A stretch of 64,000 nt of DNA from Alphaproteobacteria bacterium (lineage in GTDB: Bacteria; Pseudomonadota; Alphaproteobacteria; RF32; CAG-239), in the NCBI GenBank assembly GCA_015062235.1, contig SUUZ01000006.1, positions 11,258-75,257 on the forward strand. Direction: 5' to 3'. A model generated the notes under the pieces. It saw only the letters and a list, made by a program, of their open reading frames with translations. It searched no databases and was not told where the DNA came from. The translations under genes were made by a program, and so were the position numbers. Position 1 is the stretch's first letter; each line of letters begins with the position of its first letter. Shown here one piece after another: positions 33,775 through 55,903 of this stretch.

Positions 33775-34650
33775 ATGCAGAAGAATTCAACACTGAAAGG
33801 TATAGATTTTTCGCCAGAAATTAATATGGCAAGATATTTACAAAAAATAAGGTCGTATCCTATTCTTTCTCAAGAAGATGAATATAATTTAGCTGTTAAA
33901 TATCAACAAACAAAAAATCAAGAAATTGCAAAAATTTTAATAACCTCGCATTTGCGTTTGGTGGTTAAAGTTGTATCTAAATATAAAGGATACGGGCTGT
34001 CTACAGCAGAGATGATATCAGAGGGAAATATTGGTTTATTGTATGCTGTTGAAAAATTTGAGCCAGAAAAAGGTTTTAGATTCTCTACTTATGCATTGTG
34101 GTGGATTAGAGCAACAGTACAAAAATATATACTTAATTCGTGGTCTTTGGTTAAAATTGGTACAACAGCAGCTCAAAAAAAATTGTTTTTTAATTTAAGA
34201 AAGATAAAAAATAGGCTAAATCTCGGTGATGATAGAGAGCTTTCGTTAGATGTTTTAAACAAAATAGCTGGAACATTGGATGTTAGTGTGCAAGATGTTA
34301 CAGATATGAATATGAGATTGAAAGCTCACGATGGATCTCTTAACACAATAGTAGATGTTTCGGGAGATGGCGGGGCAGAATGGATGGATTTTATTGCTGA
34401 TTCTAAACCAAATCAAGAAGAAACAACTGCATATAGAGAAATAATGATTTATAGAAAGCATTTGTTCAACAAAGCGTTAGTGGTGTTAAATAAGAGAGAA
34501 AAAGATATTTTGTTTAAGAGGCGCTTAATGGATAAGGCTGTTACTCTTGATGATCTTAGTAGGGTATATGGTATCTCAAAAGAAAGAGTTAGGCAAATTG
34601 AACTAAACTCTATAAAGAAAATTAGTAGGGCAATAGAAACTGTTTCTTAG
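33775..34650 (+). CDS. rpoH: RNA polymerase sigma-32 factor RpoH
   Basis: Sigma-70 regions 2 and 4. RpoH box QKKLFFNLRK. 291 aa. Confidence 0.9.
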   Translation: MQKNSTLKGIDFSPEINMARYLQKIRSYPILSQEDEYNLAVKYQQTKNQEIAKILITSHLRLVVKVVSKYKGYGLSTAEMISEGNIGLLYAVEKFEPEKGFRFSTYALWWIRATVQKYILNSWSLVKIGTTAAQKKLFFNLRKIKNRLNLGDDRELSLDVLNKIAGTLDVSVQDVTDMNMRLKAHDGSLNTIVDVSGDGGAEWMDFIADSKPNQEETTAYREIMIYRKHLFNKALVVLNKREKDILFKRRLMDKAVTLDDLSRVYGISKERVRQIELNSIKKISRAIETVS

Positions 34651-35129
34651 CGATCTTCAGGCATAATATTTGCCCAGTTTTCTTTTAATTTTTCAAGTTT
34701 TGAGTTTATTATTTTTAGGCGATGCTGAGCAGAATTTTTGAAGATATAAGCAAATATATCTGGTAAGATATGATACAAAACCATGCCCAAAGCAGCTGCT
34801 GCTAACATAATAATTATGTTATAAATGTTATCAGTTATAGAAAAAACATTTGGAGATTGAAATTGATTAAAAATGCTATTCAAACATATCATAACACCAG
34901 AAATATTAAAACATCCAATAGTTGTTATTTTATTGATGTTTTTAGTGTCTGTGACAACGATTGTTAGAGTTGGTAAGAGGCCTAAAAACAAGACAACAAC
35001 TGCGGGCAAGACAGTAAAAGAAATAATTAAAAAAGCTATAAATATTAACACTTTTTGGAAAAGGTTAAGATGAATCTTACTTTTTTTTGGGTTTTTTTTA
35101 GAAGTTAAATTGTTTATAGGTTTTGTCAT
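34647..35129 (-). CDS. small polytopic membrane protein, translationally coupled to upstream kinase-like gene
   Basis: 4-bp ATGA overlap with the 35126-37126 gene. 3-4 predicted TM helices. Confidence 0.4.
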   Translation of the reverse strand: MTKPINNLTSKKNPKKSKIHLNLFQKVLIFIAFLIISFTVLPAVVVLFLGLLPTLTIVVTDTKNINKITTIGCFNISGVMICLNSIFNQFQSPNVFSITDNIYNIIIMLAAAALGMVLYHILPDIFAYIFKNSAQHRLKIINSKLEKLKENWANIMPEDR

Positions 35130-37126
35130 TTCATTATCCAGTATATTAAGCTAAAAACGAAAGCACTTAGCATTGTTAAAACGGCTAAAATAGAAGTAAA
35201 ACGTTTAGCAAGGTCGCGAGCTTCTTCCTCAATTTTTGAATCGCCTGACAATATTTTGTTTTTTTCTGTGAGTAAGATATTAGTGAGCTTTAACGCTTCA
35301 GAAAATTCAGATTTATCTCTGACCCTAGCTTCTTCATTTTCTAGTATTTCAACAATTTCTATTATTTTTCCATTTTTTGAGATTTGTAAAAGCTCTTGTT
35401 CGAGATATTTTTGATATTTTATATTGTGATAGCTTTGAATCAATGGTTTTGCCATGTTTACGAGCCATTGGGTTAGGCTTGGTAATTGTGCAGGACCATG
35501 TTTATTCTGGATGTTAGCGTATAGACGAATTATAGCTCCAAGCTTTAAAGAGTCTTGATTGGCGTTAATATCAAGAATAATGCCATCAATCTTCTTACCC
35601 ATTTTGCAACGTAAATAAGCGATTATATTTTTATCAAAAGGAAGGGTTTGGTAGTCACCCTTAAAACTATCTAAAGCTTTTAGTAGTCTAGATAGTGAGT
35701 TAACGAACCACCCTTTAAGTAGAGGGCTTATACAAGGTAAATCCTCATCAAAATCATACATAATACGATCAAAACCATAGCCATAATCATTACGGGAAAT
35801 ATAAAGCTTGAATTCTCCTGCGTTGGTAGGAGCTCGTAATGAAGGCTGTTCTTGATACCAAAGTTTAATTATGTCTGTAGCTATTAAGGTTTGTAGAGGG
35901 TTTAGAGAAGTAGCATTTTTTTTATTATAAAAGATAGTTTTGGCTATTCCATTTGGGAAAAGATATCCCTCAGAAGTTTTTAAAGGAAGTGTGTGATCCA
36001 AATATATACAAATACGAGTTAGTAACAAGCTCTTATCAGGTTGGTCTTTTTCTGCTGATATTTGTTTTTCTATTTTGGCATATAGCTTCTCATCTTCTAA
36101 TCCTGTTTTTACCCATTCTAAAAGTTTGCCACTTTGGATTACTTCTATTCCAAAATCAGGATTAGAAAGCATTGTTAAGGCAGCACTCTTTCGTGTGTAG
36201 CATTTTTCACCATTTACGATGAGGGCTCTATTTGAGCGGTCAAAGCTGTCGCTAGAAGTAAATGATGTTGTCTTACCCTCGTAATAATTAATCAAATGAG
36301 TATAATCACAACGATTTTCTGAATTATCATCAAGGAGAGAGCGTAGAATCATGCTTATTTGATTATGAATTTTTTCATTGTTAGACAAGAAAGTAAAAGA
36401 AGAATTTTTTAATTTCTGGCGAATTTGTTCTCCAGAAGATAAGTCTGAGTGTATATTTTTTCCTAAAGATAAACCCAAAAGAGCAACACCTGATGAATAA
36501 AGGTCATGCTCAAAAAAACCATTTCCTCTAGATTGTGGTTCGCATAGAGCGTTTTCAATAGTTTCATATGGTAATGGTTGGAAAAAGCTAGGAAAAGAGG
36601 CTAAACAATCTCCAAGAACAAGCTCTGATCGAGAAGAGTCTTTGAAAAAAAGATTGTCTAAGCGAATGGCTCGGTGTGTCAATCCAAAAGTTTTTAATAC
36701 ATCACAAGCAGATAAAAGAGAAAGCGCTAAAGATTTGAATATTTCTGGAGTTAGCTTTTGAGTCATTTCATCAAAAGTGTTTGCTTTAGGTCCTGTTGGT
36801 TTGTTGTAAATTAGAGCCATACTTTCAATGTTGTTATCATCATTCACTATTCCATATTCTACAAGCTTTAGAATGTTTGGAGCGTCTATGGATTTCATGT
36901 ATGGCAAATAAGACAAACGAGGAGAAAGCTCTTTTCCGCATATCAAAGCAAAAAGGTTTCTGTTTGGGTTAACATTATCTTTAACCTCAAAAGCTTTAGC
37001 TCCATTAGAATCTAGTTCTGGCAAGGGGGTATCAAAGCATATTTCAAAGCGTTCTTTTAACAAGAAGCTACTAGCGGTATTATCAGTTGTTGTTTCTAAG
37101 ATTTCTTCTGTTGTTTGCTTTTCCAT
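35126..37126 (-). CDS. protein-kinase-like (probable pseudokinase) protein with C-terminal membrane anchor
   Basis: Catalytic-loop-like HRAIRLDNLFF (HRD→HRA) and DFG-like VLGDCLASF. C-terminal TM LAVLTMLSAFVFSLIYWIM. 666 aa. Confidence 0.45.
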   Translation of the reverse strand: MEKQTTEEILETTTDNTASSFLLKERFEICFDTPLPELDSNGAKAFEVKDNVNPNRNLFALICGKELSPRLSYLPYMKSIDAPNILKLVEYGIVNDDNNIESMALIYNKPTGPKANTFDEMTQKLTPEIFKSLALSLLSACDVLKTFGLTHRAIRLDNLFFKDSSRSELVLGDCLASFPSFFQPLPYETIENALCEPQSRGNGFFEHDLYSSGVALLGLSLGKNIHSDLSSGEQIRQKLKNSSFTFLSNNEKIHNQISMILRSLLDDNSENRCDYTHLINYYEGKTTSFTSSDSFDRSNRALIVNGEKCYTRKSAALTMLSNPDFGIEVIQSGKLLEWVKTGLEDEKLYAKIEKQISAEKDQPDKSLLLTRICIYLDHTLPLKTSEGYLFPNGIAKTIFYNKKNATSLNPLQTLIATDIIKLWYQEQPSLRAPTNAGEFKLYISRNDYGYGFDRIMYDFDEDLPCISPLLKGWFVNSLSRLLKALDSFKGDYQTLPFDKNIIAYLRCKMGKKIDGIILDINANQDSLKLGAIIRLYANIQNKHGPAQLPSLTQWLVNMAKPLIQSYHNIKYQKYLEQELLQISKNGKIIEIVEILENEEARVRDKSEFSEALKLTNILLTEKNKILSGDSKIEEEARDLAKRFTSILAVLTMLSAFVFSLIYWIMK

Positions 37127-37264: not shown

Positions 37265-38335
37265 ATGGAGCAACAAGAAAAAATAGAGGATTTTTTGGAA
37301 GGTGATAAAAACCTTGAACTAGCAGGAAATGTAGACAAGAGCATTTTGCAAGAAGCAAAAATATATGGTGTTGATTTAGATAAACTAGAGCAATTTCATT
37401 TTGAAGTTGGTTCGGAAAAATTTGAGCACAAAAAAAGATTAGAAAGTTGGAAAAGTTTAGATATAGGTTTGGCCGATGTTATAAAAATGATTGTTGAAAC
37501 ATCGGAAAGACCAACATTTTTGGTAAGGGATGATATATTAGAATATATTAATCCTGCGGCTATTAGTATTCTTAGTTTGAAAGCAGATACAAATATTGTT
37601 GGAAGTAATTTTTTTAAATTGGTTGTAAAAGAGGATAGAAATCTTTTAGCTGAAAATATTGGGGAAATGATTACCAATGTTAAAACCGTGCGAATTAGAC
37701 TTAAGTCTTTGGATGGTAAAATTGTTCCCATAAATTTTCAGGCTATTTATTTGTCTGATATTGAGCATTTTTCTTTTATTTTGTTAGGAGATCACGTAAG
37801 AAAGGAAGCTCGCTCCTCCTTTAATAATTTATATGATGATGTTACGGGATTACCTAATTTTTTTCTTTTTGAAGATAGACTTCAGGTTGCAATTTCTTTG
37901 GAAGGAGCCAAAGAAAACTCTCAGAGAGCATCAACAGTAGTAGTTGCCGCAATAAGTATTGATAATATTGAGGTTTTTCGTAAAATGCACATAGAAGAAA
38001 TGATTATAAAAAAGGTAGCTAATAATCTGGTGTTAAATTTACCAAAAAATTCGACAGTAGCTAGAGGGTTAAAATATAATTTTTGGATTTTACTTTCAGG
38101 GATTGGAAGTAAAAATGATACAAATCAATATGTGAAAAGAGTTTTTGATGTATTAAAAGAAGGTGTTAGCGATAATTTTACACAGCATGAATTATTGTTT
38201 TCTATTGGTGTTTCATCTTTTCCATATCCAGCGCGTTCTGCAAAAAGGACTATTGAACAAGCTATTGAAGCTATTAAAGAAGCTCAAGCAAATCCTAAAA
38301 GTTCAATAAAATTTTATACAGGAAAAGACGTTTAA
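37265..38335 (+). CDS. PAS-like sensor with degenerate GGDEF domain
   Basis: VTGLPNFFLFEDRL resembles the GGDEF-domain start. The GG(D/E)EF position is replaced by GLKYNFW, implying an inactive cyclase. Confidence 0.4.
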   Translation: MEQQEKIEDFLEGDKNLELAGNVDKSILQEAKIYGVDLDKLEQFHFEVGSEKFEHKKRLESWKSLDIGLADVIKMIVETSERPTFLVRDDILEYINPAAISILSLKADTNIVGSNFFKLVVKEDRNLLAENIGEMITNVKTVRIRLKSLDGKIVPINFQAIYLSDIEHFSFILLGDHVRKEARSSFNNLYDDVTGLPNFFLFEDRLQVAISLEGAKENSQRASTVVVAAISIDNIEVFRKMHIEEMIIKKVANNLVLNLPKNSTVARGLKYNFWILLSGIGSKNDTNQYVKRVFDVLKEGVSDNFTQHELLFSIGVSSFPYPARSAKRTIEQAIEAIKEAQANPKSSIKFYTGKDV

Positions 38336-38853
38336 TTTTGAGCTTTTATTGTATAGATATATTCGATAATGTCCTCTTTGTCCCAATCTACAGCACCTCT
38401 GATACGCCCTATTTCCATAGAGGAATCGTTAACTAGAACAGTGTGTGGGGATGTGAATATTCCAAAATCCGTGGCAAGAGCTGATTTTTTATCGGTATAA
38501 AAATCAAGATTGACTCCTCCATATTTTTTTAAAAAAGATAATTGTTCCCCTTCAGTTTGCCAATCTTCATGCGGAGATACTAAAATGACTTTAATGTTGT
38601 TATCTTGGGTTTTTTTTACAAAAGCGTTTAAATCATCAAGTTCTCGTATGCAAGGAATACAAGTTTTTGACCAAAAAACAATAATTAAAAAATCACCAGC
38701 AAAATCTTTGAGTTGAAAAGCCTGTCCGTATTGGTTAAATATCTTGGATTCTGGGACGGGTCTTGGGTAGGCAAAAATATTTGCACCACGATAAGCCAAT
38801 GCGGTGTTTGAAAAACAAAAAAGAAATAAAACTAATAGAAATTTTCTAAACAT
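38332..38853 (-). CDS. thioredoxin-fold thiol:disulfide oxidoreductase (TlpA/ResA-like), exported
   Basis: Signal peptide. CxxC active site WSKTCIPCIREL. 173 aa. Confidence 0.65.
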   Translation of the reverse strand: MFRKFLLVLFLFCFSNTALAYRGANIFAYPRPVPESKIFNQYGQAFQLKDFAGDFLIIVFWSKTCIPCIRELDDLNAFVKKTQDNNIKVILVSPHEDWQTEGEQLSFLKKYGGVNLDFYTDKKSALATDFGIFTSPHTVLVNDSSMEIGRIRGAVDWDKEDIIEYIYTIKAQN

Positions 38854-38936
38854 TTATTTTGTATAACTTAAATTTTGTTTAACCCTTACGTAAATATGTG
38901 TGTATTATATAAGTAAATAGGTAAAGGAATTGTATA

Positions 38937-39066
38937 TGAAAAAAATATTTATGTTTCTTTTTTTTAGTGTGGCTTTTTTAACTTTAGTATCTTGTGGTAA
39001 GGCGGCTAAACCCATTCCTTATCCAGATAGTGGGTATCCACATACATATCCGTATGATAAGTAAGA
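38937..39066 (+). CDS. small putative lipoprotein (43 aa; below ORF-track threshold)
   Basis: MKKIFMFLFFSVAFLTLVSCGK lipobox followed by a Pro/Tyr-rich tail. Weak support. Confidence 0.3.
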
Positions 39067-39073
39067 TGAAGGA

Positions 39074-39766
39074 TTGAAAATGGTTTTAAGTAATGTTGAT
39101 GATGAAATGATACCATACGTTGAGTTTGCTGATAACGCAAACGAGCGCACCCCTTGTGTTTTGGTTTTGGATTGTTCTGGATCAATGAGGGGAGAACCAA
39201 TAAAGCAGCTTAATATTGGGTTGAAGGCGTTAGAACAAGAATTAAAAGATGATATTGATGCGTCATCGAGAGTTCAGTTGCTTATAATTAAGGCTTTTGG
39301 AAAAGATGAGGCGGTTATTTCTTCAGACTGGATTGATGCTATGAATTTTGAGGCGCCAGAAATGGAAGCAGGGGGATTGACGCCTTTGGGCAAGGCTATG
39401 GAGCTTGCTTTGAAAAAAATAGAAGAACAAAAATGTCTTTATGATAGTTGCGGAATAACATCTAAGCGACCATGGATATTTTTAATAAGCGATGGTGAAC
39501 CAACAGATTATGATTGGGAAATTATTGCGAAAAAATGTAGGATAGCACAGCAAAATAAAAAAGTTGTTATTCATGCTGTGGGAACGCAAGGTGCAAATTT
39601 AGATAAACTAGCTTTATTTTCAACGAATCCTCCAAAAAGATTGAGTGGTTTGAGGTTTACTGAATTTTTCTTATGGCTTAGTCGAAGTGTTTCTTGTGTT
39701 TCAAGAGCCGCTCCAAATGCTTTGGGTTTGCTTGAAGATACAGGCGATTGGAATGAAGAAGAATAG
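39074..39766 (+). CDS. von Willebrand factor A domain protein (TerY-like)
   Basis: MIDAS motif VLDCSGSMRGEPI. First gene of a three-gene vWA / PP2C / kinase operon. Confidence 0.7.
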   Translation: MKMVLSNVDDEMIPYVEFADNANERTPCVLVLDCSGSMRGEPIKQLNIGLKALEQELKDDIDASSRVQLLIIKAFGKDEAVISSDWIDAMNFEAPEMEAGGLTPLGKAMELALKKIEEQKCLYDSCGITSKRPWIFLISDGEPTDYDWEIIAKKCRIAQQNKKVVIHAVGTQGANLDKLALFSTNPPKRLSGLRFTEFFLWLSRSVSCVSRAAPNALGLLEDTGDWNEEE

Positions 39767-40499
39767 TTGTAAAAAACCTAAGTTTATTGCCGCTAGTGTT
39801 GCAGGGCAACTTCATGTTAGTAAAAAAATACCTTGTCAGGATTTTTATCAGTATGCTGTAGGACGTAATATTGTTGCTGTAGTTTCAGATGGAGCAGGAT
39901 CTGCAAAGCATGGTAGAATAGGAGCAAGGATTTTATGTTCTACTATTTGTGATTTGCTGAAAAATAGTAGTTTTGATAAAATAGAAGATAAAGTTATTCA
40001 AGCAATCAGGGTTATTAGACAAAAGCTGTTATTTCATAGGTTTAATAAAACCAAAGATGAATTAGGTCTTTCATCGTTTGCGGCAACATTAGTTGGAGTT
40101 GTCTACAACAGAGGACGGGGTGTTTTTTTTCATATTGGGGATGGAGCAGCAATATCGTTAGGCAAAGCGTATGATTTTGTGGCATCAAGGCCTGAAAATG
40201 GAAATTTTTCTTGTGAAACTTTCTTTTTTACGCAATTAGCATGGAGAGAAAACTTAAGATTTACAAAATTTTCAAAAGCATCAAGTATTTTGTTAATGTC
40301 TGATGGTTTAACTTCATTTGCTTTTCAACCAGATTTTTTAGATGTTGAATACAAGTTTATTAAACCTATAAATGATTTTCTGTTATCAGAGAAAAGTGTT
40401 GTTAGAGCTCGTAGGGCACTAGTTAATACACTTAATACTCCTAAAGCTCAAAAATTAAACCCTGATGATAAAACGCTTGTTTGGATTGGAGCGTTATAG
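39753..40499 (+). CDS. PP2C-family Ser/Thr protein phosphatase
   Basis: AVVSDGAGSAKHGRIGA, HIGDGAAI and LLMSDGL motifs. Start set at ATG 39753, overlapping the upstream gene end. Confidence 0.7.
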   Translation: MKKNSCKKPKFIAASVAGQLHVSKKIPCQDFYQYAVGRNIVAVVSDGAGSAKHGRIGARILCSTICDLLKNSSFDKIEDKVIQAIRVIRQKLLFHRFNKTKDELGLSSFAATLVGVVYNRGRGVFFHIGDGAAISLGKAYDFVASRPENGNFSCETFFFTQLAWRENLRFTKFSKASSILLMSDGLTSFAFQPDFLDVEYKFIKPINDFLLSEKSVVRARRALVNTLNTPKAQKLNPDDKTLVWIGAL

Positions 40500-41954
40500 A
40501 TGGAGGAAAAAAGACAGACATTTAACGCTGTTTATCCTGATGGTTCTTTTGGAAAGATAACGCTCGGTAAAATGGTGAACAAAGGGGGAGCTTCAGGTAA
40601 AATTTATTTGGTTGAGGGGCGTCCAGAAAGTGTAGTTAAAATTTTTCATAATATTGAGAAATCAGCTACAAATAGAAAGAAACTTCAAGCAATGCTATTA
40701 AATAAACCTAATTTTCAGCCTGTAGAAGCAAAAGGTATAGAATATATTCAAATAGCGTGGCCTGAAGCATTGTTGGATGATGAAAAGGGGTTTTGTGTTG
40801 GATATATGATGCCGCTTATAAATATGGATAAAGCTGTGTCACTGGATCATCTTATGCAAAAAGCTGTTAGAAAAAAATTAGGACTTTCAGAAAAATATGC
40901 TTATAGGATTTTTGCAGCATATAATGTTGCTTCGATGGTTGCTGCGTTACATAAATGTGGGCATTATATTATAGATTTAAAGCCTTCTAACTTATCAGTA
41001 TATAAAGAGAATATGCTGGTTGCTATGGTTGATTGCGATGGTTTTTCGATTAAAGGTGAAAAAAATAGGTACCCTGCAGAGTTTGTTTCAGAAGAATATA
41101 TTTATCCTGAAGGGATGACACAATCTTGTGAAGAAATGGGAGAAGAACAGGATAGATTTGCGCTAGCTGTGATTGTTTTTCGATTGCTTAACAATGGTAT
41201 TCACCCTTTTTCTGGGGTACCTAAAAGTGTTAACGCAGATATGTTGACCATACAAGGAAGAATTGAGCAATATCACTATGCTTATGGGTTGTGGCCAGAT
41301 AGGTATCAAAGCCCCCATCCATATAGTATACATGAGTATTTTAGTAAAGAAACGTTGGAGCTTTTTGAAAGGGCTTTTACTAAAGGATGTCAAAGGCCAT
41401 CTGCTTATGAGTGGCAAGAACATTTATGGAAATTGATGCATAGTTTGAAATCGTGTAAAGAAAATAGTAATCATGTTTTTTTTACATCAAAAGGATGTGG
41501 TTTATGTTCTGTAGAGAGTAAATTTAATAAAAAATTGAGTGTTATAAAAAAACAACGGATAGAACCAGAAAAAATTAGAGGAATAGAAGTAACACGATTG
41601 TTACCAGAAAACGTTAAAGAGGAAAAGAAAAGAAAATATGCTTATAATGTAAAAATGCAGAAAATTTTTTGGTCTTTTATTTTTGTATATATGCTATTTT
41701 TTGCTTTGCTTTTTAAATTATTGATGCCCTTTAAGGTTTTTTTTAGTAAAATAGGCATAGGTGTTCAGTTTTTGGTTATGGTGTTTTTTTTAATTTTTCT
41801 AGACAGTATGTTAAGAAAATATTCCAAACACTTCAGTTTGCTACAAAACAAAATTATTCGTGATATGTTGCGGGTATACGCCTTTATTTGGATGTTGGTA
41901 ACAATAGTGTTGATAAATGATTTACCAAAAAATTTGTTTGAACTAGCTCCTTAG
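40500..41954 (+). CDS. Hanks-type Ser/Thr protein kinase with C-terminal transmembrane segments
   Basis: Gly-rich loop NKGGASGKIYL. Beta-3 Lys VVKIF. Catalytic loop IIDLKPSNL. DFG-like DCDGF. C-terminal TM helices. Start codon abuts the PP2C stop. Confidence 0.8.
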   Translation: MEEKRQTFNAVYPDGSFGKITLGKMVNKGGASGKIYLVEGRPESVVKIFHNIEKSATNRKKLQAMLLNKPNFQPVEAKGIEYIQIAWPEALLDDEKGFCVGYMMPLINMDKAVSLDHLMQKAVRKKLGLSEKYAYRIFAAYNVASMVAALHKCGHYIIDLKPSNLSVYKENMLVAMVDCDGFSIKGEKNRYPAEFVSEEYIYPEGMTQSCEEMGEEQDRFALAVIVFRLLNNGIHPFSGVPKSVNADMLTIQGRIEQYHYAYGLWPDRYQSPHPYSIHEYFSKETLELFERAFTKGCQRPSAYEWQEHLWKLMHSLKSCKENSNHVFFTSKGCGLCSVESKFNKKLSVIKKQRIEPEKIRGIEVTRLLPENVKEEKKRKYAYNVKMQKIFWSFIFVYMLFFALLFKLLMPFKVFFSKIGIGVQFLVMVFFLIFLDSMLRKYSKHFSLLQNKIIRDMLRVYAFIWMLVTIVLINDLPKNLFELAP

Positions 41955-43687: not shown

Positions 43688-43734
<47 letters not shown>

Positions 43735-43809
43735 ATATTTAGAAAAATAGCACATAACATATTGTAATTAGGTAATTTTTTAACAGATTAAAGATTTTAT
43801 AAAAAATGT

Positions 43810-43835
43810 GGTGCCTCAATGGTGCCTCATTTTTT
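43810..43835. repeat. tandem GGTGCCTCA x2 + T-run motif (candidate integrase arm-type/accessory site, left end)
   Basis: GGTGCCTCAATGGTGCCTCATTTTTT. 24/26 match to the copy at 57059-57084, in the same orientation. Confidence 0.5.
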
Positions 43836-44087
43836 AGAAAAAACACCATTTTTTAGATATTAAATTATGGATGAAAATATTTATTTTTTCTCATACCAAG
43901 CACCCTTGGTAGAACCATTTTTAACCAAGAATCCACCATCAACCAATTCTGCTAATGCTTTTTTGTAAAATAAAAATATTTTAAAATTTTTTCATTTTAT
44001 TTTTGCTTTTTCCTAATCAAGTTTGGTAATATACAAATAAAGCAAATAATACTTATTAAACTTAACTATAATTTTATGGGGGTAATT

Positions 44088-44240
44088 ATGAAAGAAAGCA
44101 AACAATTTTTAGAAGAATGGGTAAAGAATTATTCAACAGATAACCAAACAAAAGAATGGTTAAATGAATGGGTTAAAAAAGCATCAGTTGAATCTCAAAC
44201 TAAACAATGGTTAGAAAGTTGGGTTAATTCTTCTAAATAG
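44088..44240 (+). CDS. small repeat peptide (50 aa; below ORF-track threshold) with iterated EWV/EWL motif
   Basis: MKESKQFLEEWVKNYSTDNQTKEWLNEWVKKASVESQTKQWLESWVNSSK. RBS-like GGGGGTAATT upstream. Followed by a terminator hairpin. Confidence 0.3.
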   Translation: MKESKQFLEEWVKNYSTDNQTKEWLNEWVKKASVESQTKQWLESWVNSSK

Positions 44241-44257
44241 CAAATAGTTTCATCATA

Positions 44258-44292
44258 AAAAAGCACAGAATCTCCCACTTCTGTGCTTTTTT
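44258..44292. terminator. bidirectional rho-independent terminator
   Basis: AAAAAAGCACAGA ... TCTGTGCTTTTTT between the convergent small ORF and the 317-aa gene. Confidence 0.55.
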
Positions 44293-45244
44293 ATAATGGA
44301 AATAATCCATAATATTTTAAATTATCTATCAAATCACTAAAAAGTTCATCATTATTTTCAAAATGAAAACCAATACTACTATTAGAATCATAACAAATGA
44401 TTTTACTATTCTGCCTATCAAATGTTATATGTATATTAACAATATCTTCTTTACCTTGTTTAATTACAGCCTCTTGAAGTTTATCCTTGCAAGATGAAAT
44501 GGCATATGCAAGATTATACAATATTTTATCAATAGCAATTGCATATAACATTCTTTTAGTTTCTTGGAATATTTGTGGAGTGCAACTTTTATTATTAACA
44601 ACAATAGGATATATAATCTTGGATTTTCTCATACTTATAATGTCTTGTTTTGCAATTTCTTCTGATAAAGGTATGCCTTTTAAAGAGCAGCCATCTAGTA
44701 GTCCTTGCCAATTTCTATCTAATATATCTAATAAGTCTTTATCTGCAAAATTACTATGATTTCTTACATCTAAAAAAAATACATTATTTCCCCACACATA
44801 TGTAAACAGTAAAAAATTATCATTATATTTTGTTCTTTTATCAAGAGGATGAATATGCAAATGAATTATTCCCCAATCATTTAACATATAGTCATTATAA
44901 GTTAAATGATTAGAATGTGTGCTTAAATATGGTAAAATAGATGAACCTTTTTCAAAGCATTTTTGTATATTATCTATTTTTTTCTTAAATGCTTTATATA
45001 GTTTGGATTTTAATATTTCTTTGGAGTAATATACAGCCTTTTTTCCACAAGGAAGCCTTTGCATATTGTAAATATAACATTTTAACAAGTCTTTATAATC
45101 AGCATCTTTGAGATATTCTTTAGAATGTTTTGTGATTTCTATATTTTGTGTTTTTATAAAATCATTAAATAGTTCAATTAGAAAATCTCTGCAATCTTGC
45201 TTAAAATTATTAAAAATGCTTGTTATATTTACATCATCACTCAT
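44291..45244 (-). CDS. hypothetical protein translationally coupled (ATGA overlap) to Type ISP RM gene
   Basis: 317-aa ORF whose start codon overlaps the stop of the 1613-aa RM gene. No recognisable motifs. Confidence 0.4.
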   Translation of the reverse strand: MSDDVNITSIFNNFKQDCRDFLIELFNDFIKTQNIEITKHSKEYLKDADYKDLLKCYIYNMQRLPCGKKAVYYSKEILKSKLYKAFKKKIDNIQKCFEKGSSILPYLSTHSNHLTYNDYMLNDWGIIHLHIHPLDKRTKYNDNFLLFTYVWGNNVFFLDVRNHSNFADKDLLDILDRNWQGLLDGCSLKGIPLSEEIAKQDIISMRKSKIIYPIVVNNKSCTPQIFQETKRMLYAIAIDKILYNLAYAISSCKDKLQEAVIKQGKEDIVNIHITFDRQNSKIICYDSNSSIGFHFENNDELFSDLIDNLKYYGLFPL

Positions 45245-48200
45245 TTCAAATCCAATTTTGGCAATCTCTTAACAATCTCATTAGTTGCCATACTAACTGT
45301 TATAATGGATAAAATCAAGTCAAGGATATATCTTGGGTTATTGTGTTCCAATCCCCAATCATTAGGGTCATTCTTAATTCCACTATCTTTATCAATCTTA
45401 ACTTGGTATCTATCCATAATCCACTCTATTGCTGATTTACCATTAATAACATAATCATATGCTTCTAATGGAATATTCTCTATTCTGATATATGAATTGT
45501 AAATTAAGGTTGATTTATCAACATCTTTGCCATTTTTGCCAAATGATAGCTTCTCAACATAATATTTTTCACTATCTTCCCCAATAACCTTAACATCTGG
45601 ATATGCTGGAACTGCCTCATAATTTAAGTGAAGTTCTGCTAATTCTCTACCAGCTTTACTAAATGCCCAGAAATCATTAGGAACATCTACAAGAGGTATT
45701 TTTGGCAACATTTTCTTCAAATCTGCTGCAAATTGCTCTCTATAATCTTTGGAATGCAATAAACCATAAACATAATAGAATATATCTTCTTTAACTACTT
45801 TATGACCATATCTTGTTTTGCATTGTTCCAATATAAAATCAGTAATACCATCTCTTCTGATATAATTCTCTTTACCTTGGTCAAATAATGTTCCTATATT
45901 TCCCTTATTTTCTTCATAGTAATATAGTGGGAAACATTGTGAATCACCATTTAAGTGCAAATCAGGTATATGATTTACTATAATTGGAACTCCATTTTTC
46001 ATTGCAGGAAAGCAAATACACACATTTTTATGCTCTGATGTTGGGAATAATTTAGGTATCTGATACATCATTTCATTCAATGGTTTGTATAAAAACAAAT
46101 ATTGTTTATAAAATGGTCTATATACAGCATAAACAATATTACCATCTGAATAATTATATACTTTATTCTTATTTACATCATTTTGAGTTGCTCTTGTCCA
46201 AACTATTTTTGATGGCTCATAAGTAATTTGTAAGGATTTATTATCATTTAACTTATTTCTTTGTTCATTATAAAAATCAATAGTTGTTTTTATATTATTT
46301 TCTAAATCTTTTTTTGATGAATTATAACACCAAGGGTCTCTTTGGGTTTTTAATCCATTTGAATAATATGGAACAAATACAGTTCTAGTATTAGTTTTAT
46401 CATCTTTATCACCAAGAGGTATAAATGAACTAAATAAATCACTTCTTTGATTTAACCAATCATTATGCTCATTAGGTCTTAATGCCTTCCACTCTATTTT
46501 AGAATTATTTATACCCTTAAAATGCTTTAATATCTCTAATTTTTCTGTTCTTTTTAGATAATCACCAATATCATGGTAATAAATTGTTGCTTTTTCATCT
46601 GGATTTTTATTAGGTTTCTTAACAAGAATAGTGATAGCAACACCTGTCATAATATCAAATACATTTTGACCTTCTTTTTGGGCAGCATCTTTGGATTTTC
46701 CTCTAATAGCACCTCTTAAATTAAATATATGAATAGAACTAAACTCTTGTTCTAAACATTGTCTAAACCCATCCATAGAGTTAGATTCAAGCCATCCACC
46801 ATTAGTAATAAAGGCAACTATACCACCATTTTTGTTATCTAATCTATCTGATGACCATCTAAATGCCTTTATATAACTATCATATAAAGCATTTTTATTA
46901 GTGGCTGTTCCCAATTTAGCATAGGTTTCTTCAACTCTACTATCTAATTTAGGATATTTTTGGTTTTGTGCATTATCATTGGCATTTTTCTGACCAACTG
47001 AATATGGTGGATTACCAATAATAATTCTTACTGGTGCTTTCTTTTGTTCAATAACTCTTTCAGAGTTTTGTGGCAACATATCAGAGAATAATTCATCTGC
47101 TTCATCAGATTCTCCTAATTGGAATGTATCTGTTAAGCAAATACCATCAAATGGTTGGTATTCATCTTTAAGTTCCATAATATCATGGTATGCATTTTCT
47201 ATGTTAATAGAGGCAATATAGTAAGCCAATAATACAATCTCATTACAATGTAATTCTTTTGCATACTTATGTGGCAATGCCTTTTTATCAATAAGACCTT
47301 GCTGAATCATTCTTGTAATAAATGTTCCAGTGCCTGTAAATGGGTCTAAAATATGGACATTTTCATCAGATAAACTTCTGTTAAACTCTTTTTTCAATAC
47401 TTGTGCTACTGAATTATTAATAAAATCAACCACTTCAATAGGTGTATATACAATACCTAATTGTTCAACAACTTTTGGGAATGCTGTTTTGAAGAACTTA
47501 TCATATAATTCAACTATAATCTTTTGCTTACCTTCTGCATTATCAATGCCTTCAACCCTTTCTTTTACTGATTCATAGAACTTATTTAAGGTTTCAGCAT
47601 CTTTATCCATTGCTTGTTCTTCAAGTAAATCAATCATTTTCTGTAATGATTTAGATACTGCATTGTTTTGAACAAATGAATAATTCTCAAATAATGCCTC
47701 AAATACTGGTTGTGTTATAAGATGTTGTGCTAACATCTGTATAACTTCATCTTTGGATACAGATGGGTTAATATTCTTTTGTAAACCCTTTAATAAGCTA
47801 TCAAATGCTTTTTTATGCTTACCTTCTGTTGCAATAAGTAAGTTAATTCTCTCAATATATCTTTGTGCAATCTGTGCAACATCTTGTGCCCATTGGACCC
47901 AATATCTCTTATTTCCAACCTTTTGCACCATTTTAGCATAAATTGCATTTTGCAACTGGTCTATTTCAGGTAGTGGTAATGCTAATTGGGTGCTTTCTGT
48001 TGATGATGTTGTTGTATCACCATCAGAATCTGTTGCTTTACTGCCAATTCCACCAACAATAATCTTGTTATTCTTCTTTTTATTCAAATCAATCTTATTG
48101 ATTTCAGCATTAAATCTATCATCATGGGCTCTTAAAGCATTAAGGACTGTCCAAACAACCTTATATCTCTCATTATCATCCAATGCTTCTTCTGGCTTTA

Positions 48201-50082
48201 CACCTGATGGAACAACAATAGGAATAATTATATAGCCATATTTCTTATTAGGTGCTGTTCTCATAACTCTACCAACTGATTGCACCACATCAACTTGGCT
48301 ATTCTTGGCAGATAAGAACATAACAGCATCAAGTGATGGAACATCAACACCTTCTGATAAACACTTAACATTGGTCAATATATGACATTCATTGCTATCT
48401 TTTGGTGCATTTTTTAACCAAGATAACAATTCATCTCTTTGGCTTGCACCCATTGTTCCATCAATATGCTTTGATTCAACACCAACTAATTGGCTTCTTT
48501 CTTCTTGGGTTAAACTATCATAATAAGCATCTTTATGGTTATTAAACATTCCACTTATTTTTTGTGAAACTTTAATATTTTGGCAGAATGCAACTGCTTT
48601 TGTCATAGGTGATTTATCATCATTGAATGCTTCATCTGTTGATAAAACCCTTTTAGACAAAGCATTTATACAACCAATTAACTTACTAATATCATCTGTA
48701 TTGATTTCATTGCTCTTGTCTGAAATAACATTTTGTAATGCTGTTGGAATCTGTTCTTCTTTTAAGGTTAAAATCAATACCTTATAATCTGCTAATAGAT
48801 TTTTTGATACTGCTTCACCAAATCCAATTCTATACATTTCTTGTCCATAGATGCTTTCATCATCCATTGAACACAATATTGCATCATTTTCTTGGGCTTT
48901 TTGCTTACTTGCATCTGTATATAATCTTGGGGTTGCAGTCATATACATTCTTTTTTTAGCAACAATACAGTCATTATTATGGACCTTTGTAAATGATGCT
49001 TCTTCTTTATCTTTTAATACAACACCAGTAGTTCTATGGGCTTCATCACAAATTACCAAATCAAATATACAAGAATCCTTTTGTCTTTTATTGATGGCTT
49101 CTTGGGCTTTGGATATAACATCAATTGATTGATATGTAGAGAATACAACAATCATTCTATCTTTATGTTGCTGTTTTGCTAACTCATATTGATGAATAAT
49201 ATTAGGAACATTGGTTGATGCAGGTAATGCCAAATCAACCACACTCATATCATCATTGTCTGTTTTTTTGGTAATTGCTGGGTCAGAACAAATACAAATA
49301 GGATAAATTGGCTTTTCTGATTCAGCACACCATTCTCTTAATGTCTGCCCTAATAATGCTATTGATGGAACTAAAAATAGCACCAATCCACTTCCATTGG
49401 TTTCTTTTTCAGCAATTTTTAAGGATGTATAGGTCTTACCACAACCACAAGCCATTATTAACTTGCCTCTATCATTGCCTTTAAAATGCTCATTTACATT
49501 AGAAATTGCTTTATTTTGGTGGTCTCTTGGTGTTTTTTTCTGTTTTCTTGCTGATTTTCCTTCTTCTCCATTTACCAATTTATCCCAATCAACATTAGAG
49601 TTCTCTAAATCTGTTAAACTAATTCTGATAAGTGGTGGATTCTGATTTTTTATTGTATTTTCTGCTTCACCATTCCAATGGTTAGTAGTTGAAATCCATA
49701 ATCTTTGGCTAAATTGGACTGTCTCCATATTTTCATTATAAAAACTCTTGCTTGATGTAGATAAAAAACTATCAACACCAGCTTTATCAATGTAAGCATT
49801 TTCCTCATAGCATTTACATTGAACTGCCCAATAATCACCCTCAACTGTCTGTGCAACTAAATCAATTCCAGTATCTTTACCACTGAAATCTTTTCTATAT
49901 GGAAACTCATTCCATAGCCATATCTGCTTGAATCTTCCTTCATATGTTGGTTCTGACAACATATACTTCTTCATTAAGAGCTCAAATCTTGCACCCTTAT
50001 CTCTTTCAGAGAATGCTTCTCTTCTAAACTTTTTTAATACATCACTGAATGATAATATTGGTGTGGTCATATTGCTCTCCAT
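45241..50082 (-). CDS. Type ISP restriction-modification enzyme (Mrr-like nuclease + SF2 helicase-like ATPase + gamma-class N6-adenine methyltransferase + TRD, single polypeptide; LlaGI/LlaBIII-like)
   Basis: N-terminal PD-(D/E)xK-like IDLVAQTVEGDYWAVQCK. Helicase motif I ACGCGKT, motif II ICDEAHRTTG, motif VI QSVGRVMR. MTase motif I DPFTGTGTF and motif IV NPPY. Long C-terminal specificity region. 1613 aa. Confidence 0.85.
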   Translation of the reverse strand: MESNMTTPILSFSDVLKKFRREAFSERDKGARFELLMKKYMLSEPTYEGRFKQIWLWNEFPYRKDFSGKDTGIDLVAQTVEGDYWAVQCKCYEENAYIDKAGVDSFLSTSSKSFYNENMETVQFSQRLWISTTNHWNGEAENTIKNQNPPLIRISLTDLENSNVDWDKLVNGEEGKSARKQKKTPRDHQNKAISNVNEHFKGNDRGKLIMACGCGKTYTSLKIAEKETNGSGLVLFLVPSIALLGQTLREWCAESEKPIYPICICSDPAITKKTDNDDMSVVDLALPASTNVPNIIHQYELAKQQHKDRMIVVFSTYQSIDVISKAQEAINKRQKDSCIFDLVICDEAHRTTGVVLKDKEEASFTKVHNNDCIVAKKRMYMTATPRLYTDASKQKAQENDAILCSMDDESIYGQEMYRIGFGEAVSKNLLADYKVLILTLKEEQIPTALQNVISDKSNEINTDDISKLIGCINALSKRVLSTDEAFNDDKSPMTKAVAFCQNIKVSQKISGMFNNHKDAYYDSLTQEERSQLVGVESKHIDGTMGASQRDELLSWLKNAPKDSNECHILTNVKCLSEGVDVPSLDAVMFLSAKNSQVDVVQSVGRVMRTAPNKKYGYIIIPIVVPSGVKPEEALDDNERYKVVWTVLNALRAHDDRFNAEINKIDLNKKKNNKIIVGGIGSKATDSDGDTTTSSTESTQLALPLPEIDQLQNAIYAKMVQKVGNKRYWVQWAQDVAQIAQRYIERINLLIATEGKHKKAFDSLLKGLQKNINPSVSKDEVIQMLAQHLITQPVFEALFENYSFVQNNAVSKSLQKMIDLLEEQAMDKDAETLNKFYESVKERVEGIDNAEGKQKIIVELYDKFFKTAFPKVVEQLGIVYTPIEVVDFINNSVAQVLKKEFNRSLSDENVHILDPFTGTGTFITRMIQQGLIDKKALPHKYAKELHCNEIVLLAYYIASINIENAYHDIMELKDEYQPFDGICLTDTFQLGESDEADELFSDMLPQNSERVIEQKKAPVRIIIGNPPYSVGQKNANDNAQNQKYPKLDSRVEETYAKLGTATNKNALYDSYIKAFRWSSDRLDNKNGGIVAFITNGGWLESNSMDGFRQCLEQEFSSIHIFNLRGAIRGKSKDAAQKEGQNVFDIMTGVAITILVKKPNKNPDEKATIYYHDIGDYLKRTEKLEILKHFKGINNSKIEWKALRPNEHNDWLNQRSDLFSSFIPLGDKDDKTNTRTVFVPYYSNGLKTQRDPWCYNSSKKDLENNIKTTIDFYNEQRNKLNDNKSLQITYEPSKIVWTRATQNDVNKNKVYNYSDGNIVYAVYRPFYKQYLFLYKPLNEMMYQIPKLFPTSEHKNVCICFPAMKNGVPIIVNHIPDLHLNGDSQCFPLYYYEENKGNIGTLFDQGKENYIRRDGITDFILEQCKTRYGHKVVKEDIFYYVYGLLHSKDYREQFAADLKKMLPKIPLVDVPNDFWAFSKAGRELAELHLNYEAVPAYPDVKVIGEDSEKYYVEKLSFGKNGKDVDKSTLIYNSYIRIENIPLEAYDYVINGKSAIEWIMDRYQVKIDKDSGIKNDPNDWGLEHNNPRYILDLILSIITVSMATNEIVKRLPKLDLK

Positions 50083-50257
50083 AATTGCCCATTTATGGAG
50101 AGCTAAAAATACTAATCAGTTTTTATTTTATTATAACCTATTGCAGCCCTTCTATCTCCAACAATTCTGTGAGTTTAGAGTCCTTTTTTATTTAAATTTT
50201 AATATTTTATCCTTATTCTCAACCTATATAATCTAAATGGGCATCTATTTTATATAT

Positions 50258-50288
50258 CTTTGATAAATAAATATACTATTTATCAAAG
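50258..50288. promoter_or_regulatory. 12-bp perfect inverted repeat CTTTGATAAATA-N7-TATTTATCAAAG immediately upstream of serine recombinase start
   Basis: Palindrome ends 9 bp before the ATG at 50298 and overlaps the RBS. Candidate operator or recombinase site. Confidence 0.4.
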
Positions 50289-50297
50289 GATTATATA

Positions 50298-50900: not shown

Positions 50901-50937
50901 ATTTCTCTATGATTCTTCTTATGAAATTAAATGATTT
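50868..50937. repeat. 70-bp direct repeat copy A (includes last 11 codons + stop of recombinase gene and an internal CATAGA-N4-TCTATG palindrome)
   Basis: Identical 70-mer at 52343-52412. Together they bracket the Fic gene and its upstream repeat array. Confidence 0.75.
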
Positions 50938-50957
50938 GTTCTATATATTTCTCTTTT

Positions 50958-52342: not shown

Positions 52343-52412
52343 ATAAATGAATATATAAAAAATAAAGAACCATAGATTTCTCTATGATTCTTCTTATGAA
52401 ATTAAATGATTT
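52343..52412. repeat. 70-bp direct repeat copy B
   Basis: Identical to 50868-50937. Confidence 0.75.
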
Positions 52413-52466
52413 ATTATACATAATAATAAAAAGGGCTCATAATTGCCCTAAATTGCTTTATTTTAA

Positions 52467-53189: not shown

Positions 53190-53226
53190 TGTAGTTCCTT
53201 TTATTATAATAATATTTATTCAATTC

Positions 53227-55899: not shown

Positions 55900-55903
55900 A
55901 TTA

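What the first reader, a model, noticed from the sequence alone, without database searches (positions are those of the whole stretch)
39074..41954. TerY-P-like triad: vWA protein, PP2C phosphatase and Hanks kinase in an overlapping operon
The three genes have overlapping or abutting start and stop codons. They encode a MIDAS-containing vWA domain (DCSGSM), a PP2C phosphatase (SDGAGS, SDGL) and a Ser/Thr kinase (DLKPSN, DCDGF) with C-terminal TM helices. This is the architecture described for TerY-phosphorylation triads, which have been implicated in stress and phage-defence signalling. Here it lies just outside the tRNA island, next to other kinase-like genes.
Basis: partly seen in the sequence, partly recalled or inferred. 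Interest (0 to 1): 0.6.

Follow-up and report, generated by a model that had tools for sequence, protein, structure and literature searches.

The report
Conserved TerY-P-type kinase–phosphatase–vWA operon
Three tightly packed genes for a metal-binding vWA protein, a PP2C phosphatase and a membrane-anchored Ser/Thr kinase form a genuine TerY-P-type signalling triad related to E. coli YegL–PphC–YegI, but it is inherited as a core gene block across hundreds of gut Alphaproteobacteria species, which fits housekeeping signalling better than a mobile anti-phage system.

Summary

All three are homologous to the E. coli triad: YegL (42% id, E 7e-47), PphC (E 2e-15) and YegI (E 8e-32, including the C…H…CxxC zinc ribbon). 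The same vWA→PP2C→kinase order occurs on a Sphingomonas plasmid and on Klebsiella ter plasmids. It is therefore a member of the TerY-P class.

A defence role for this locus is not supported:
- The kinase occurs in 270 GTDB species of uncultured gut and rumen Alphaproteobacteria.
- Every complete locus of the 80 examined keeps the block TlpA-like thioredoxin (divergent) | ~42-aa lipoprotein | vWA | PP2C | kinase, while the outer flanks vary.
- Its divergence tracks that of neighbouring housekeeping genes.
- PADLOC does not call it, no relative was found on viral contigs, and it has no OB fold or effector gene.
- The defence island 1.8 kb downstream is a strain-specific 13.5-kb insertion that excludes the triad.

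Two things are new. A conserved small lipoprotein gene heads the operon. The vWA protein is unusually constrained (median 88% identity, against 66% for the kinase and 58% for PP2C).

The most likely function is a membrane-anchored Ser/Thr phospho-switch acting on or through the vWA protein. Its physiological output is unknown.

The parts
38332..38853 (-). TlpA-like periplasmic thiol:disulfide oxidoreductase (signal peptide, CxxC), transcribed divergently from the operon. It is adjacent in every locus that holds the upstream sequence.
   Evidence: Pfam AhpC-TSA E 4.7e-16 and Redoxin. NCBIfam TlpA E 1.6e-17, below its cutoff. Present next to the triad in 77 loci at 33–69% identity. Functional linkage is inferred from synteny only.
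38879..38908 (+). Sigma-70-like promoter candidate (TTAACC-18-TATTAT) in the 82-bp divergent intergenic region, upstream of the lipoprotein gene.
   Evidence: This is weak evidence: the number of promoter-like sites in the region is no higher than in shuffled sequence.
38936..39064 (+). Small lipoprotein gene (42 aa): signal peptide, lipobox …LVSC, then a mature peptide of about 22 residues, CGKAAKPIPYPDSGYPHTYPYDK. It is the likely first gene of the operon and ends 15 nt before the vWA ATG.
   Evidence: Read from sequence. Called as a 42–48-aa gene in relatives. An equivalent ORF lies between TlpA and vWA in 79 of 79 loci, with the motif CGKxxxPxPxxxSGYPHxYP. Mismatch fraction by codon position is 0.21, 0.18 and 0.57, the pattern of a protein-coding gene. 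334 database clusters, none with a Pfam domain and only one named, as 'hypothetical protein'.
39080..39766 (+). YegL/TerY-like cytoplasmic vWA protein (228 aa) with an intact MIDAS motif (D31-x-S33-x-S35, T101, D138). It has a conserved Ser-rich C-terminal helix and tail (W199, S201, S203, S205, S208, P212, W224).
   Evidence: Pfam VWA E 1e-5. 42% identity to E. coli YegL, E 7e-47. 30–31% identity to ter-plasmid TerY proteins. AF2 pLDDT 79.5, pTM 0.78. Foldseek matches vWA and integrin I domains. 80–94% identical across the clade.
39753..40499 (+). PP2C-type Ser/Thr phosphatase (248 aa), homologous to PphC, with all metal-binding Asp motifs intact (D30, D46-GAGS, G-D130-G, D184-G, D238-D239-K-T).
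   Evidence: PF13672 E 5.8e-36. E. coli PphC E 2e-15. Invariant columns. D46 aligns with PphC D46, whose D46N mutant is inactive (bioRxiv 10.1101/303594).
40500..41453 (+). Hanks-type Ser/Thr kinase domain (residues 1–318). It has a Gly-rich loop GGASG, Lys47, the catalytic loop D159-L-K-P-S-N164, and D178-C-D180-G-F in place of DFG.
   Evidence: Pfam Pkinase E 1.1e-10. YegI E 8e-32. Invariant residues. Foldseek top matches are PknB and PknA; the AF2 model is only moderate (pLDDT 68).
41454..41507 (+). Zinc-ribbon-like motif C319-x5-H325-x7-C333-x2-C336, directly C-terminal to the kinase domain.
   Evidence: All four residues are invariant in 47 homologues. The motif aligns with the C…H…C-x2-C of YegI and of the Sphingomonas plasmid kinase. 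Metal binding was not tested.
41655..41924 (+). Membrane region with three predicted TM helices (about 388–408, 417–438, 455–474), followed by a conserved 10-residue tail (N473, P476, L482) predicted to be periplasmic.
   Evidence: Hydropathy scan. AF2 helices with pLDDT 83–93. Invariant polar residues Q423 and N473, with N450 invariant in the 13-sequence alignment. Topology is inferred from the positive-inside rule, not tested.

Best explanation
The locus is a genuine TerY-P-type phosphorylation triad of the YegL/PphC/YegI subfamily. It forms a four-gene operon (small lipoprotein, vWA, PP2C, kinase) that is part of the vertically inherited core genome of a lineage of uncultured gut and rumen Alphaproteobacteria.

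Proposed mechanism:
1. The kinase is held at the inner membrane by three C-terminal TM helices, with its catalytic domain and zinc ribbon in the cytoplasm. It autophosphorylates and phosphorylates a partner.
2. The most likely partner is the cytoplasmic vWA protein, on its invariant Ser-rich C-terminal helix or tail.
3. The PP2C enzyme reverses these phosphorylations.
4. The MIDAS site of the vWA protein binds a divalent cation and an acidic or phosphorylated ligand. Phosphorylation therefore switches which partner the vWA protein holds.
5. The signal probably enters through the kinase's membrane domain, possibly from the co-encoded periplasmic lipopeptide.

Shown: the homology, the intact catalytic and MIDAS residues, the membrane segments, the co-conservation and the backbone location.

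Inferred: the substrate, the direction of signalling, the role of the lipoprotein, and that the physiological role is housekeeping, envelope or stress signalling rather than phage defence.
For: Domain assignments.

Homology to the experimentally characterised E. coli proteins. YegI is an active inner-membrane Ser/Thr kinase (bioRxiv 10.1101/819920). PphC is Mn-dependent and dephosphorylates YegI (bioRxiv 10.1101/303594).

The same gene order occurs on a Sphingomonas plasmid and on Klebsiella ter plasmids.

Intact residues:
- Catalytic and zinc-ribbon residues are invariant in 47 kinases.
- PP2C Asp motifs are invariant.
- MIDAS residues and the C-terminal Ser motif are invariant from this protein through to the ter-operon TerY proteins.

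Distribution and inheritance:
- 270 GTDB species encode the kinase.
- The five-gene block is intact in all complete loci, while the flanks fall into 13 upstream and 6 downstream types, all housekeeping.
- Kinase divergence correlates with that of neighbouring housekeeping genes, rho 0.73–0.79.
- The nearby defence island is a strain-specific insertion that excludes the triad.

Other support:
- vWA shows median 88% identity, against 51–66% for its neighbours.
- The vWA tail (residues 205–228) is predicted to be disordered yet contains invariant residues.
- Foldseek relates the vWA model to ArnB. From my own knowledge, ArnB is an archaeal vWA protein regulated by Hanks-kinase phosphorylation.
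Against: - No experiment or structure links the kinase to the vWA protein as its substrate in any TerY-P system that I could read.
- The physiological role of the E. coli triad is itself unknown, and its genes are barely expressed (PMC13232886).
- Some TerY-P triads do confer phage resistance (PMC7699616; bioRxiv 10.1101/2022.08.12.503731). Being conserved does not exclude a defensive role.
- The lipoprotein and TlpA linkage rests on synteny within a single clade.
- The AF2 kinase model is weak in the activation-loop region (pLDDT below 50).
- I could not measure what fraction of genomes in the lineage carry the block.
Confidence: 0.6

Rival explanations
1. It is an anti-phage TerY-P defence system like those validated by Gao et al. 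2020 and in Pseudomonas aeruginosa. On infection, the kinase–phosphatase–vWA switch triggers protection.
For: - It belongs to the same broad triad class.
- TerY-P systems protect against T7-like phages and Autographiviridae (PMC7699616; bioRxiv 10.1101/2022.08.12.503731).
- The kinase gives weak matches to the defence kinases PD-T4-6, MkoA and PglW.
- A defence island lies 1.8 kb downstream.
Against: - PADLOC gives no TerY-P call. The only hit is the TerY model at E 0.011.
- The kinase has TM helices where the validated defence version has an OB fold (PMC11090510).
- No nuclease or other effector gene is adjacent.
- The triad is conserved in every complete locus examined, across 270 species, with housekeeping neighbours.
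- The vWA protein is under strong purifying selection, and divergence tracks the host genes. Defence genes are usually patchy and fast-evolving.
- No relative was found on viral contigs.
- The adjacent island is a separate insertion.
Confidence: 0.2
2. It is a metal or tellurite stress module of the Ter system. The TerY-like vWA protein would sense metal ions together with TerD/TerB-type proteins.
For: - The vWA protein is 30–31% identical to the TerY proteins of the ter operon and shares all MIDAS residues and the C-terminal motif.
- TerY-P has been proposed to act as a metal-sensing switch (Anantharaman 2012, as cited in PMC11090510).
- The neighbouring TlpA-type reductases act in copper delivery to oxidases in other Alphaproteobacteria (my own knowledge).
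Against: - No TerD homologue was found in the window (tblastn, E up to 10) or in the triad-bearing gut and rumen loci (E up to 1e-3).
- The protein belongs to the YegL subtype, which has an N-terminal EFADNxxxR extension that the ter-operon TerY proteins lack.
- The kinase is much closer to YegI (E 8e-32) than to the ter-plasmid kinase (E 4e-9).
Confidence: 0.15
3. The three genes are functionally unrelated neighbours, and the triad appearance is coincidental.
For: None beyond the general possibility.
Against: - The starts and stops overlap or abut.
- The genes are co-conserved in all complete loci while the flanks vary.
- The same three families in the same order occur in E. coli, a Sphingomonas plasmid and Klebsiella plasmids.
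- E. coli PphC dephosphorylates YegI (bioRxiv 10.1101/303594).
Confidence: 0.02

Closest known systems
E. coli YegL–PphC(YegK)–YegI triad
   Same: - All three proteins are homologous: 42% identity (E 7e-47), 25% (E 2e-15) and 28% (E 8e-32).
- The gene order is the same (vWA, PP2C, kinase), and the first two genes overlap.
- The kinase has the same D-x-D-x-F motif in place of DFG and the same C…H…CxxC zinc ribbon.
- Membrane-spanning segments follow the ribbon at about the same position (residues 391–437 in YegI, 388–474 here).
- YegI is experimentally an inner-membrane kinase (bioRxiv 10.1101/819920).
   Different: - YegI is 648 aa, with two TM helices and a cytoplasmic C-terminal domain of about 210 aa. 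This kinase is 484 aa, has three predicted TM helices, and ends 10 residues after the last one.
- This kinase keeps the canonical DLKPSN catalytic loop, which YegI lacks.
- The E. coli locus has no upstream lipoprotein or TlpA gene, and in K-12 it is interrupted by yegJ.
TerY-P triad as defined by Anantharaman, Iyer & Aravind 2012 (summarised in PMC11090510), including the ter-plasmid TerY3–PP2C–kinase
   Same: It has a TerY-like vWA protein, a PP2C phosphatase and a Ser/Thr kinase fused to a zinc ribbon. The MIDAS residues and the C-terminal W-x-S-x-S…S motif are invariant in the vWA alignment. The gene order is the same.
   Different: - There is no association with Ter genes, McrBC or CoCoNuT systems, type VII secretion genes or DNA-processing genes.
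- It is chromosomal and conserved across a lineage, not carried on an island or plasmid.
- The kinase is only distantly related to the ter-plasmid kinase (E 4e-9).
Stand-alone anti-phage TerY-P (Gao et al. 2020; Pseudomonas variant in bioRxiv 10.1101/2022.08.12.503731)
   Same: The same three domain families occur in one operon.
   Different: The defence kinase carries a C-terminal OB fold (PMC11090510), whereas this one carries TM helices. PADLOC models do not recognise this locus. Its distribution is that of a core gene.
Archaeal ArnA/ArnB with ArnC/ArnD kinases (Sulfolobus archaellum regulation)
   Same: A cytoplasmic vWA protein acts as the phospho-regulated output of Hanks-type kinases and a phosphatase. 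ArnB (PDB 8s05) is among the Foldseek matches of the vWA model. The description of Arn regulation comes from my own knowledge.
   Different: No sequence-level relationship was shown. There is no FHA partner here. The genes, organisms and outputs differ. This is a mechanistic analogy only.

Membership tests
TerY-P phosphorylation triad (broad class) | TerY-like vWA protein with a MIDAS motif | tested here: met
   Pfam VWA is above its cutoff. 42% identity to YegL and 30–31% to ter-operon TerY1–3. D31, S33, S35, D138, W199, S203 and S208 are invariant, and T101 and S201 nearly so. The AF2 model matches vWA folds.
TerY-P phosphorylation triad (broad class) | Adjacent PP2C-family phosphatase | tested here: met
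   PF13672 E 5.8e-36. Homologous to PphC. Metal-binding Asp motifs are invariant. The gene overlaps the vWA stop by 14 nt.
TerY-P phosphorylation triad (broad class) | Ser/Thr kinase fused at its C-terminus to a zinc ribbon | tested here: met
   Pkinase E 1.1e-10. C319, H325, C333 and C336 are invariant and align with the YegI and Sphingomonas plasmid kinases. Zinc binding itself cannot be tested with these tools.
TerY-P phosphorylation triad (broad class) | The three genes are co-conserved as a unit in unrelated genomes | tested here: met
   All complete loci among the 80 GTDB loci, plus the E. coli chromosome, a Sphingomonas plasmid and a Klebsiella plasmid.
TerY-P phosphorylation triad (broad class) | Typical context: Ter genes, restriction or DNA-processing modules, or mobile islands (a usual feature, not a strictly defining one) | tested here: not met
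   No TerD homologue. The neighbours are TlpA, NMO, an SH3 protein with an M20 peptidase, and type IV pilus genes. The nearby island is a separate insertion.
Validated anti-phage TerY-P (Gao 2020 type) | Kinase with a C-terminal OB fold | tested here: not met
   The region C-terminal to the zinc ribbon consists of a charged helix and three TM helices. The OB-fold criterion is taken from PMC11090510.
Validated anti-phage TerY-P (Gao 2020 type) | Recognised by defence-system HMMs (PADLOC) | tested here: not met
   The only hit is the TerY model at E 0.011; the PP2C has no hit at all. As a control, the E. coli triad is not recognised either, so the models are narrow.
Validated anti-phage TerY-P (Gao 2020 type) | Confers phage resistance | not testable with these tools
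   This needs a phage challenge of a host expressing the operon.
YegL/PphC/YegI subfamily | vWA protein with the N-terminal (E/D)FA(D/S)N…R extension, and a kinase with D-x-D-x-F in place of DFG | tested here: met
   Alignment: the extension is present in this protein, in YegL and in the Sphingomonas plasmid protein, but absent from ter-operon TerY1–3. Kinase motif.
YegL/PphC/YegI subfamily | Integral-membrane kinase | tested here: met
   Three hydrophobic segments scoring at least 1.76 on a 19-residue Kyte–Doolittle window, with confident AF2 helices. YegI topology was determined experimentally (bioRxiv 10.1101/819920). This is a prediction only, and the number of TM helices differs (3 here, 2 in YegI).
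YegL/PphC/YegI subfamily | Kinase autophosphorylates and is dephosphorylated by the partner PP2C | not testable with these tools
   Only conservation of the catalytic residues could be checked.

The most novel reading that the evidence does not exclude
In this lineage the TerY-P triad has been fixed as a core trans-envelope signalling device. In this reading, a lipid-anchored periplasmic peptide of about 22 residues (CGKxxxPxPxxxSGYPHxYP), encoded as the first gene of the operon, is sensed by the three-helix membrane domain and the conserved periplasmic tail of the kinase. The near-invariant vWA protein is the phospho-regulated cytoplasmic output. This would be the first physiological, non-defence role and the first identified input for any TerY-P, YegI-type system.
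Probability: 0.2. Interest if true: 0.6.

Novelty: new member of a known kind. Interest (0 to 1): 0.35.

Why it matters
TerY-P triads are widespread. The library of 50%-identity cluster representatives holds 627 relatives of this kinase at E ≤ 1e-30. Even so, the function of the E. coli representative is still unknown, and only a few variants have been tied to phage defence.

Here the triad is universally retained, syntenic and strongly constrained in its vWA component, and it is paired with a conserved small lipoprotein. That suggests these modules can serve a core cellular role. It also offers concrete hypotheses for experiments in E. coli YegL/PphC/YegI:
- the vWA C-terminal Ser motif is the phospho-acceptor;
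- the kinase's membrane domain is the signal input.

It is also a caution for defence-island annotation. A triad sitting 1.8 kb from a restriction-modification island is not part of that island.

Tried and rejected
- **PADLOC on the triad.** No TerY-P call. The control with the E. coli triad was also negative, so this test separates close relatives of the validated defence systems but not membership of the broad class.
- **Viral-contig scan with the kinase alignment.** No relative found.
- **PDB sequence search.** No solved relative of the vWA protein, and only marginal eukaryotic kinase hits for the kinase.
- **Primary TerY-P paper (PMC4104200).** Not held in the library. The definition was taken from PMC11090510 and PMC4978471.
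- **AF2 model of the kinase.** Mean pLDDT is only 68 and the activation-loop region is unreliable. I used it only for the fold class and the TM helices.
- **The 666-aa kinase-like neighbour as a possible paralogue.** No significant similarity to the triad kinase, so I treat it as unrelated.
- **Promoter and terminator scan.** Not above the shuffled background; only a weak promoter candidate.
- **Rfam scan of the window.** Only the two tRNAs.
- **Pfam scan of the small lipoprotein.** No family; the LptM_cons match at E 0.48 is not meaningful.
- **Ter-system membership.** Rejected, because no TerD homologue was found.
Full report
**1. The observation**

- **vWA gene.** It most likely starts at the ATG at 39080. 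An AAGGA lies 7 nt upstream, and gene callers chose this start in the near-identical contig L004. The gene ends at 39766.
- **PP2C gene.** Its ATG at 39753 lies 14 nt inside the vWA gene.
- **Kinase gene.** Its ATG at 40500 follows the PP2C TAG stop directly. It ends at 41954, overlapping by 4 nt a convergent SH3-domain gene.

Pfam assigns all three above threshold: VWA (E 1e-5), PP2C_2 (E 5.8e-36) and Pkinase (E 1.1e-10). All quoted motifs are present. Three hydrophobic segments occupy kinase residues 386–475.

**2. Family**

I fetched the E. coli K-12 yegL–pphC–yegI region and compared the proteins.

| Window protein | E. coli protein | Identity | E-value |
|---|---|---|---|
| vWA | YegL | 42% over 211 residues | 7e-47 |
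| PP2C | PphC | 25% | 2e-15 |
| Kinase | YegI | 28% over 331 residues | 8e-32 |

The kinase alignment runs through a C-x5-H-x7-C-x2-C motif just after the kinase domain. These four residues (C319, H325, C333, C336) are invariant in 47 homologues.

Bell et al. (PMC11090510), citing Anantharaman et al. 2012, define TerY-P as a TerY-like vWA protein, a PP2C-like enzyme and a Ser/Thr kinase fused C-terminally to a zinc ribbon. All three features are met here.

A tblastn search of plasmids with the vWA protein found two kinds of hit:
- the TerY proteins of ter operons, at 30–31% identity;
- a Sphingomonas plasmid protein, at 43% identity.

Both loci show vWA→PP2C→kinase in the same order, and both kinases are homologous to this one (E 8e-26 and E 4e-9).

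In a joint alignment:
- The MIDAS residues and a C-terminal W-x-S-x-S…S motif are invariant or nearly so from this protein through to TerY1–3.
- An N-terminal EFADNxxxR extension is shared only with YegL and the Sphingomonas plasmid protein.

This places the protein in the YegL subtype.

Structure predictions agree:
- The vWA model (pLDDT 79.5) matches vWA and integrin I domains.
- The moderate kinase model (pLDDT 68) matches PknB and PknA.

The catalytic residues are intact:
- Kinase: K47, D159, N164, D178 and D180.
- PP2C: the Asp motifs, including the residue equivalent to PphC D46, whose D46N mutant is inactive (bioRxiv 10.1101/303594).

**3. Genomic setting**

The kinase family returned 593 database hits. 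The top 120 are all about 484 aa long and 64–100% identical, from MAGs labelled Alphaproteobacteria.

A scan of one genome per GTDB species found relatives in 270 species, and all 80 loci listed come from uncultured gut or rumen Alphaproteobacteria. Among those 80 loci:

- Every complete one has the same block: TlpA-like thioredoxin (divergent) | small ORF | vWA | PP2C | kinase.
- The outer flanks are not fixed. There are 13 upstream types (the most common is a PilT-like ATPase of a pilus cluster) and 6 downstream types (NMO in 54 loci, SH3 with M20 peptidase in 18). All of these neighbours are housekeeping genes.
- Kinase identity to the window correlates with that of the neighbouring M20, SH3 and TlpA genes (Spearman rho 0.73–0.79). 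This is what vertical inheritance predicts.

No relative was found on viral contigs, and there is no TerD homologue in the window or in the related gut and rumen loci.

The defence genes near the triad are a PD-T4-7-like gene and a Type ISP restriction-modification enzyme. They lie inside a 13.5-kb insertion (window 43734–57204) that is absent from a 99.7%-identical contig. The insertion carries an integrase, an excisionase-like gene, a resolvase, a Fic protein, an ankyrin protein and tRNA-Arg(CCT). The triad lies 1.8 kb outside it, in the backbone.

**4. New features**

*(a) A conserved small lipoprotein gene heads the operon.*
- A 42-aa ORF (38936–39064) encodes a signal peptide, a lipobox and a mature peptide of about 22 residues. 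It ends 15 nt before the vWA start.
- An equivalent ORF is present in 79 of 79 loci, with the motif CGKxxxPxPxxxSGYPHxYP.
- Differences concentrate at third codon positions (0.57, against 0.21 and 0.18 at the first two).
- 334 database clusters match it, none with a Pfam domain and only one named, as 'hypothetical protein'.

*(b) The vWA protein is far more constrained than any neighbour.*

| Protein | Median identity to window |
|---|---|
| vWA | 88% (range 80–94%) |
| Kinase | 66% |
| M20 peptidase | 63% |
| PP2C | 58% |
| TlpA | 51% |

Its last 24 residues are predicted to be disordered, yet they contain invariant S205, C206, S208, P212 and W224.

*(c) The kinase's membrane module differs from that of YegI.*
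- It has three predicted helices and a conserved 10-residue tail. YegI has two helices plus a cytoplasmic domain of about 210 aa (bioRxiv 10.1101/819920).
- It contains invariant polar residues (Q423, N473; N450 in the smaller alignment).
- Outside this clade, the nearest kinases (44–48% identity) align only over residues ~10–345 and have very different lengths, from 450 to 1,145 aa. The C-terminal module is therefore lineage-specific.

**5. Mechanism**

*Shown:*
- the three families, their intact active-site and MIDAS residues, and the membrane segments;
- tight translational coupling and co-conservation;
- for the E. coli homologues, kinase activity, membrane localisation and dephosphorylation of the kinase by the PP2C (bioRxiv 10.1101/819920 and 10.1101/303594).

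*Inferred:*
- The membrane-anchored kinase phosphorylates the vWA protein on its conserved Ser-rich C-terminal helix or tail.
- The PP2C resets the switch.
- The MIDAS site mediates a metal-dependent interaction with a partner that is altered by phosphorylation.
- The signal enters via the membrane domain, possibly from the co-encoded lipopeptide.

The Sulfolobus ArnA/ArnB system is a mechanistic precedent for a phospho-regulated vWA output. This comes from my own knowledge; ArnB is among the Foldseek matches.

**6. Defence or housekeeping**

Some TerY-P systems do protect against phages (PMC7699616; bioRxiv 10.1101/2022.08.12.503731). This locus, however:
- lacks the OB fold of the validated type (PMC11090510);
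- is not called by PADLOC, although PADLOC misses the E. coli triad too;
- has no adjacent effector gene;
- behaves as a core, vertically inherited, strongly constrained gene set.

I rate a defence role at about 0.2 and a core signalling role at about 0.6.

**7. Verdict**

The finding is a new member of a known kind, the YegL/PphC/YegI-type TerY-P triad. It has an interesting lineage-specific elaboration (small lipoprotein, three-TM kinase, TlpA neighbour) and an unusually conserved vWA component.

It is moderately interesting. It does not overturn anything, but it offers testable hypotheses for a widespread system whose function is still unknown.

Noticed in passing
window 43734–57204: A 13.5-kb integrative island, absent from the 99.7%-identical contig L004; about 20 bp of L004 aligns at both junctions. 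Contents: PD-T4-7-like gene (44291–45244), Type ISP restriction-modification enzyme (45241–50082), resolvase, Fic protein, ankyrin-repeat protein, tRNA-Arg(CCT) at 54884–54960, an HTH/excisionase-like pentapeptide protein and a tyrosine integrase (55904–57046)..
   Followed up: partly
window 34647–37126 (minus strand): A 666-aa kinase-like protein with a C-terminal TM anchor overlaps by 4 nt a 160-aa multi-TM protein. Its Pkinase match is below the Pfam cutoff, and the catalytic HRD Asp is replaced by Ala ('HRAIRLDN'), so it may be a pseudokinase. PADLOC gives an MkoA-like match at E 6.9e-9. It is split into 211-aa and 400-aa ORFs in sister contigs L004 and L005, and is adjacent to the triad only in the closest relatives.
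   Followed up: partly
window 38936–39064; loci L001, L007–L086: A small lipoprotein family of about 40–50 aa with no Pfam domain and essentially no annotation (motif CGKxxxPxPxxxSGYPHxYP). It has 334 database clusters and lies directly upstream of the triad in all 79 loci that hold the TlpA–vWA interval.
   Followed up: yes
window 39080–39766: The vWA protein is 80–94% identical across species in which neighbouring genes are 33–82% identical. Its C-terminal tail, predicted to be disordered, still contains invariant Ser, Cys, Pro and Trp residues. The reason for this constraint is unexplained.
   Followed up: partly
window 37265–38335: A PAS–GGDEF protein whose GGDEF signature appears degenerate ('RGLKYNF' where RxGGDEF is expected). 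It is probably not an active diguanylate cyclase. This was read from the sequence only.
   Followed up: no
loci L001, L002, L003, L090 (flanks): In many relatives the block lies next to a type IV pilus (bundlin/PilS, T2SSE/T2SSF) cluster and an NMO-family gene, instead of the SH3 and M20 genes seen in the window.
   Followed up: no
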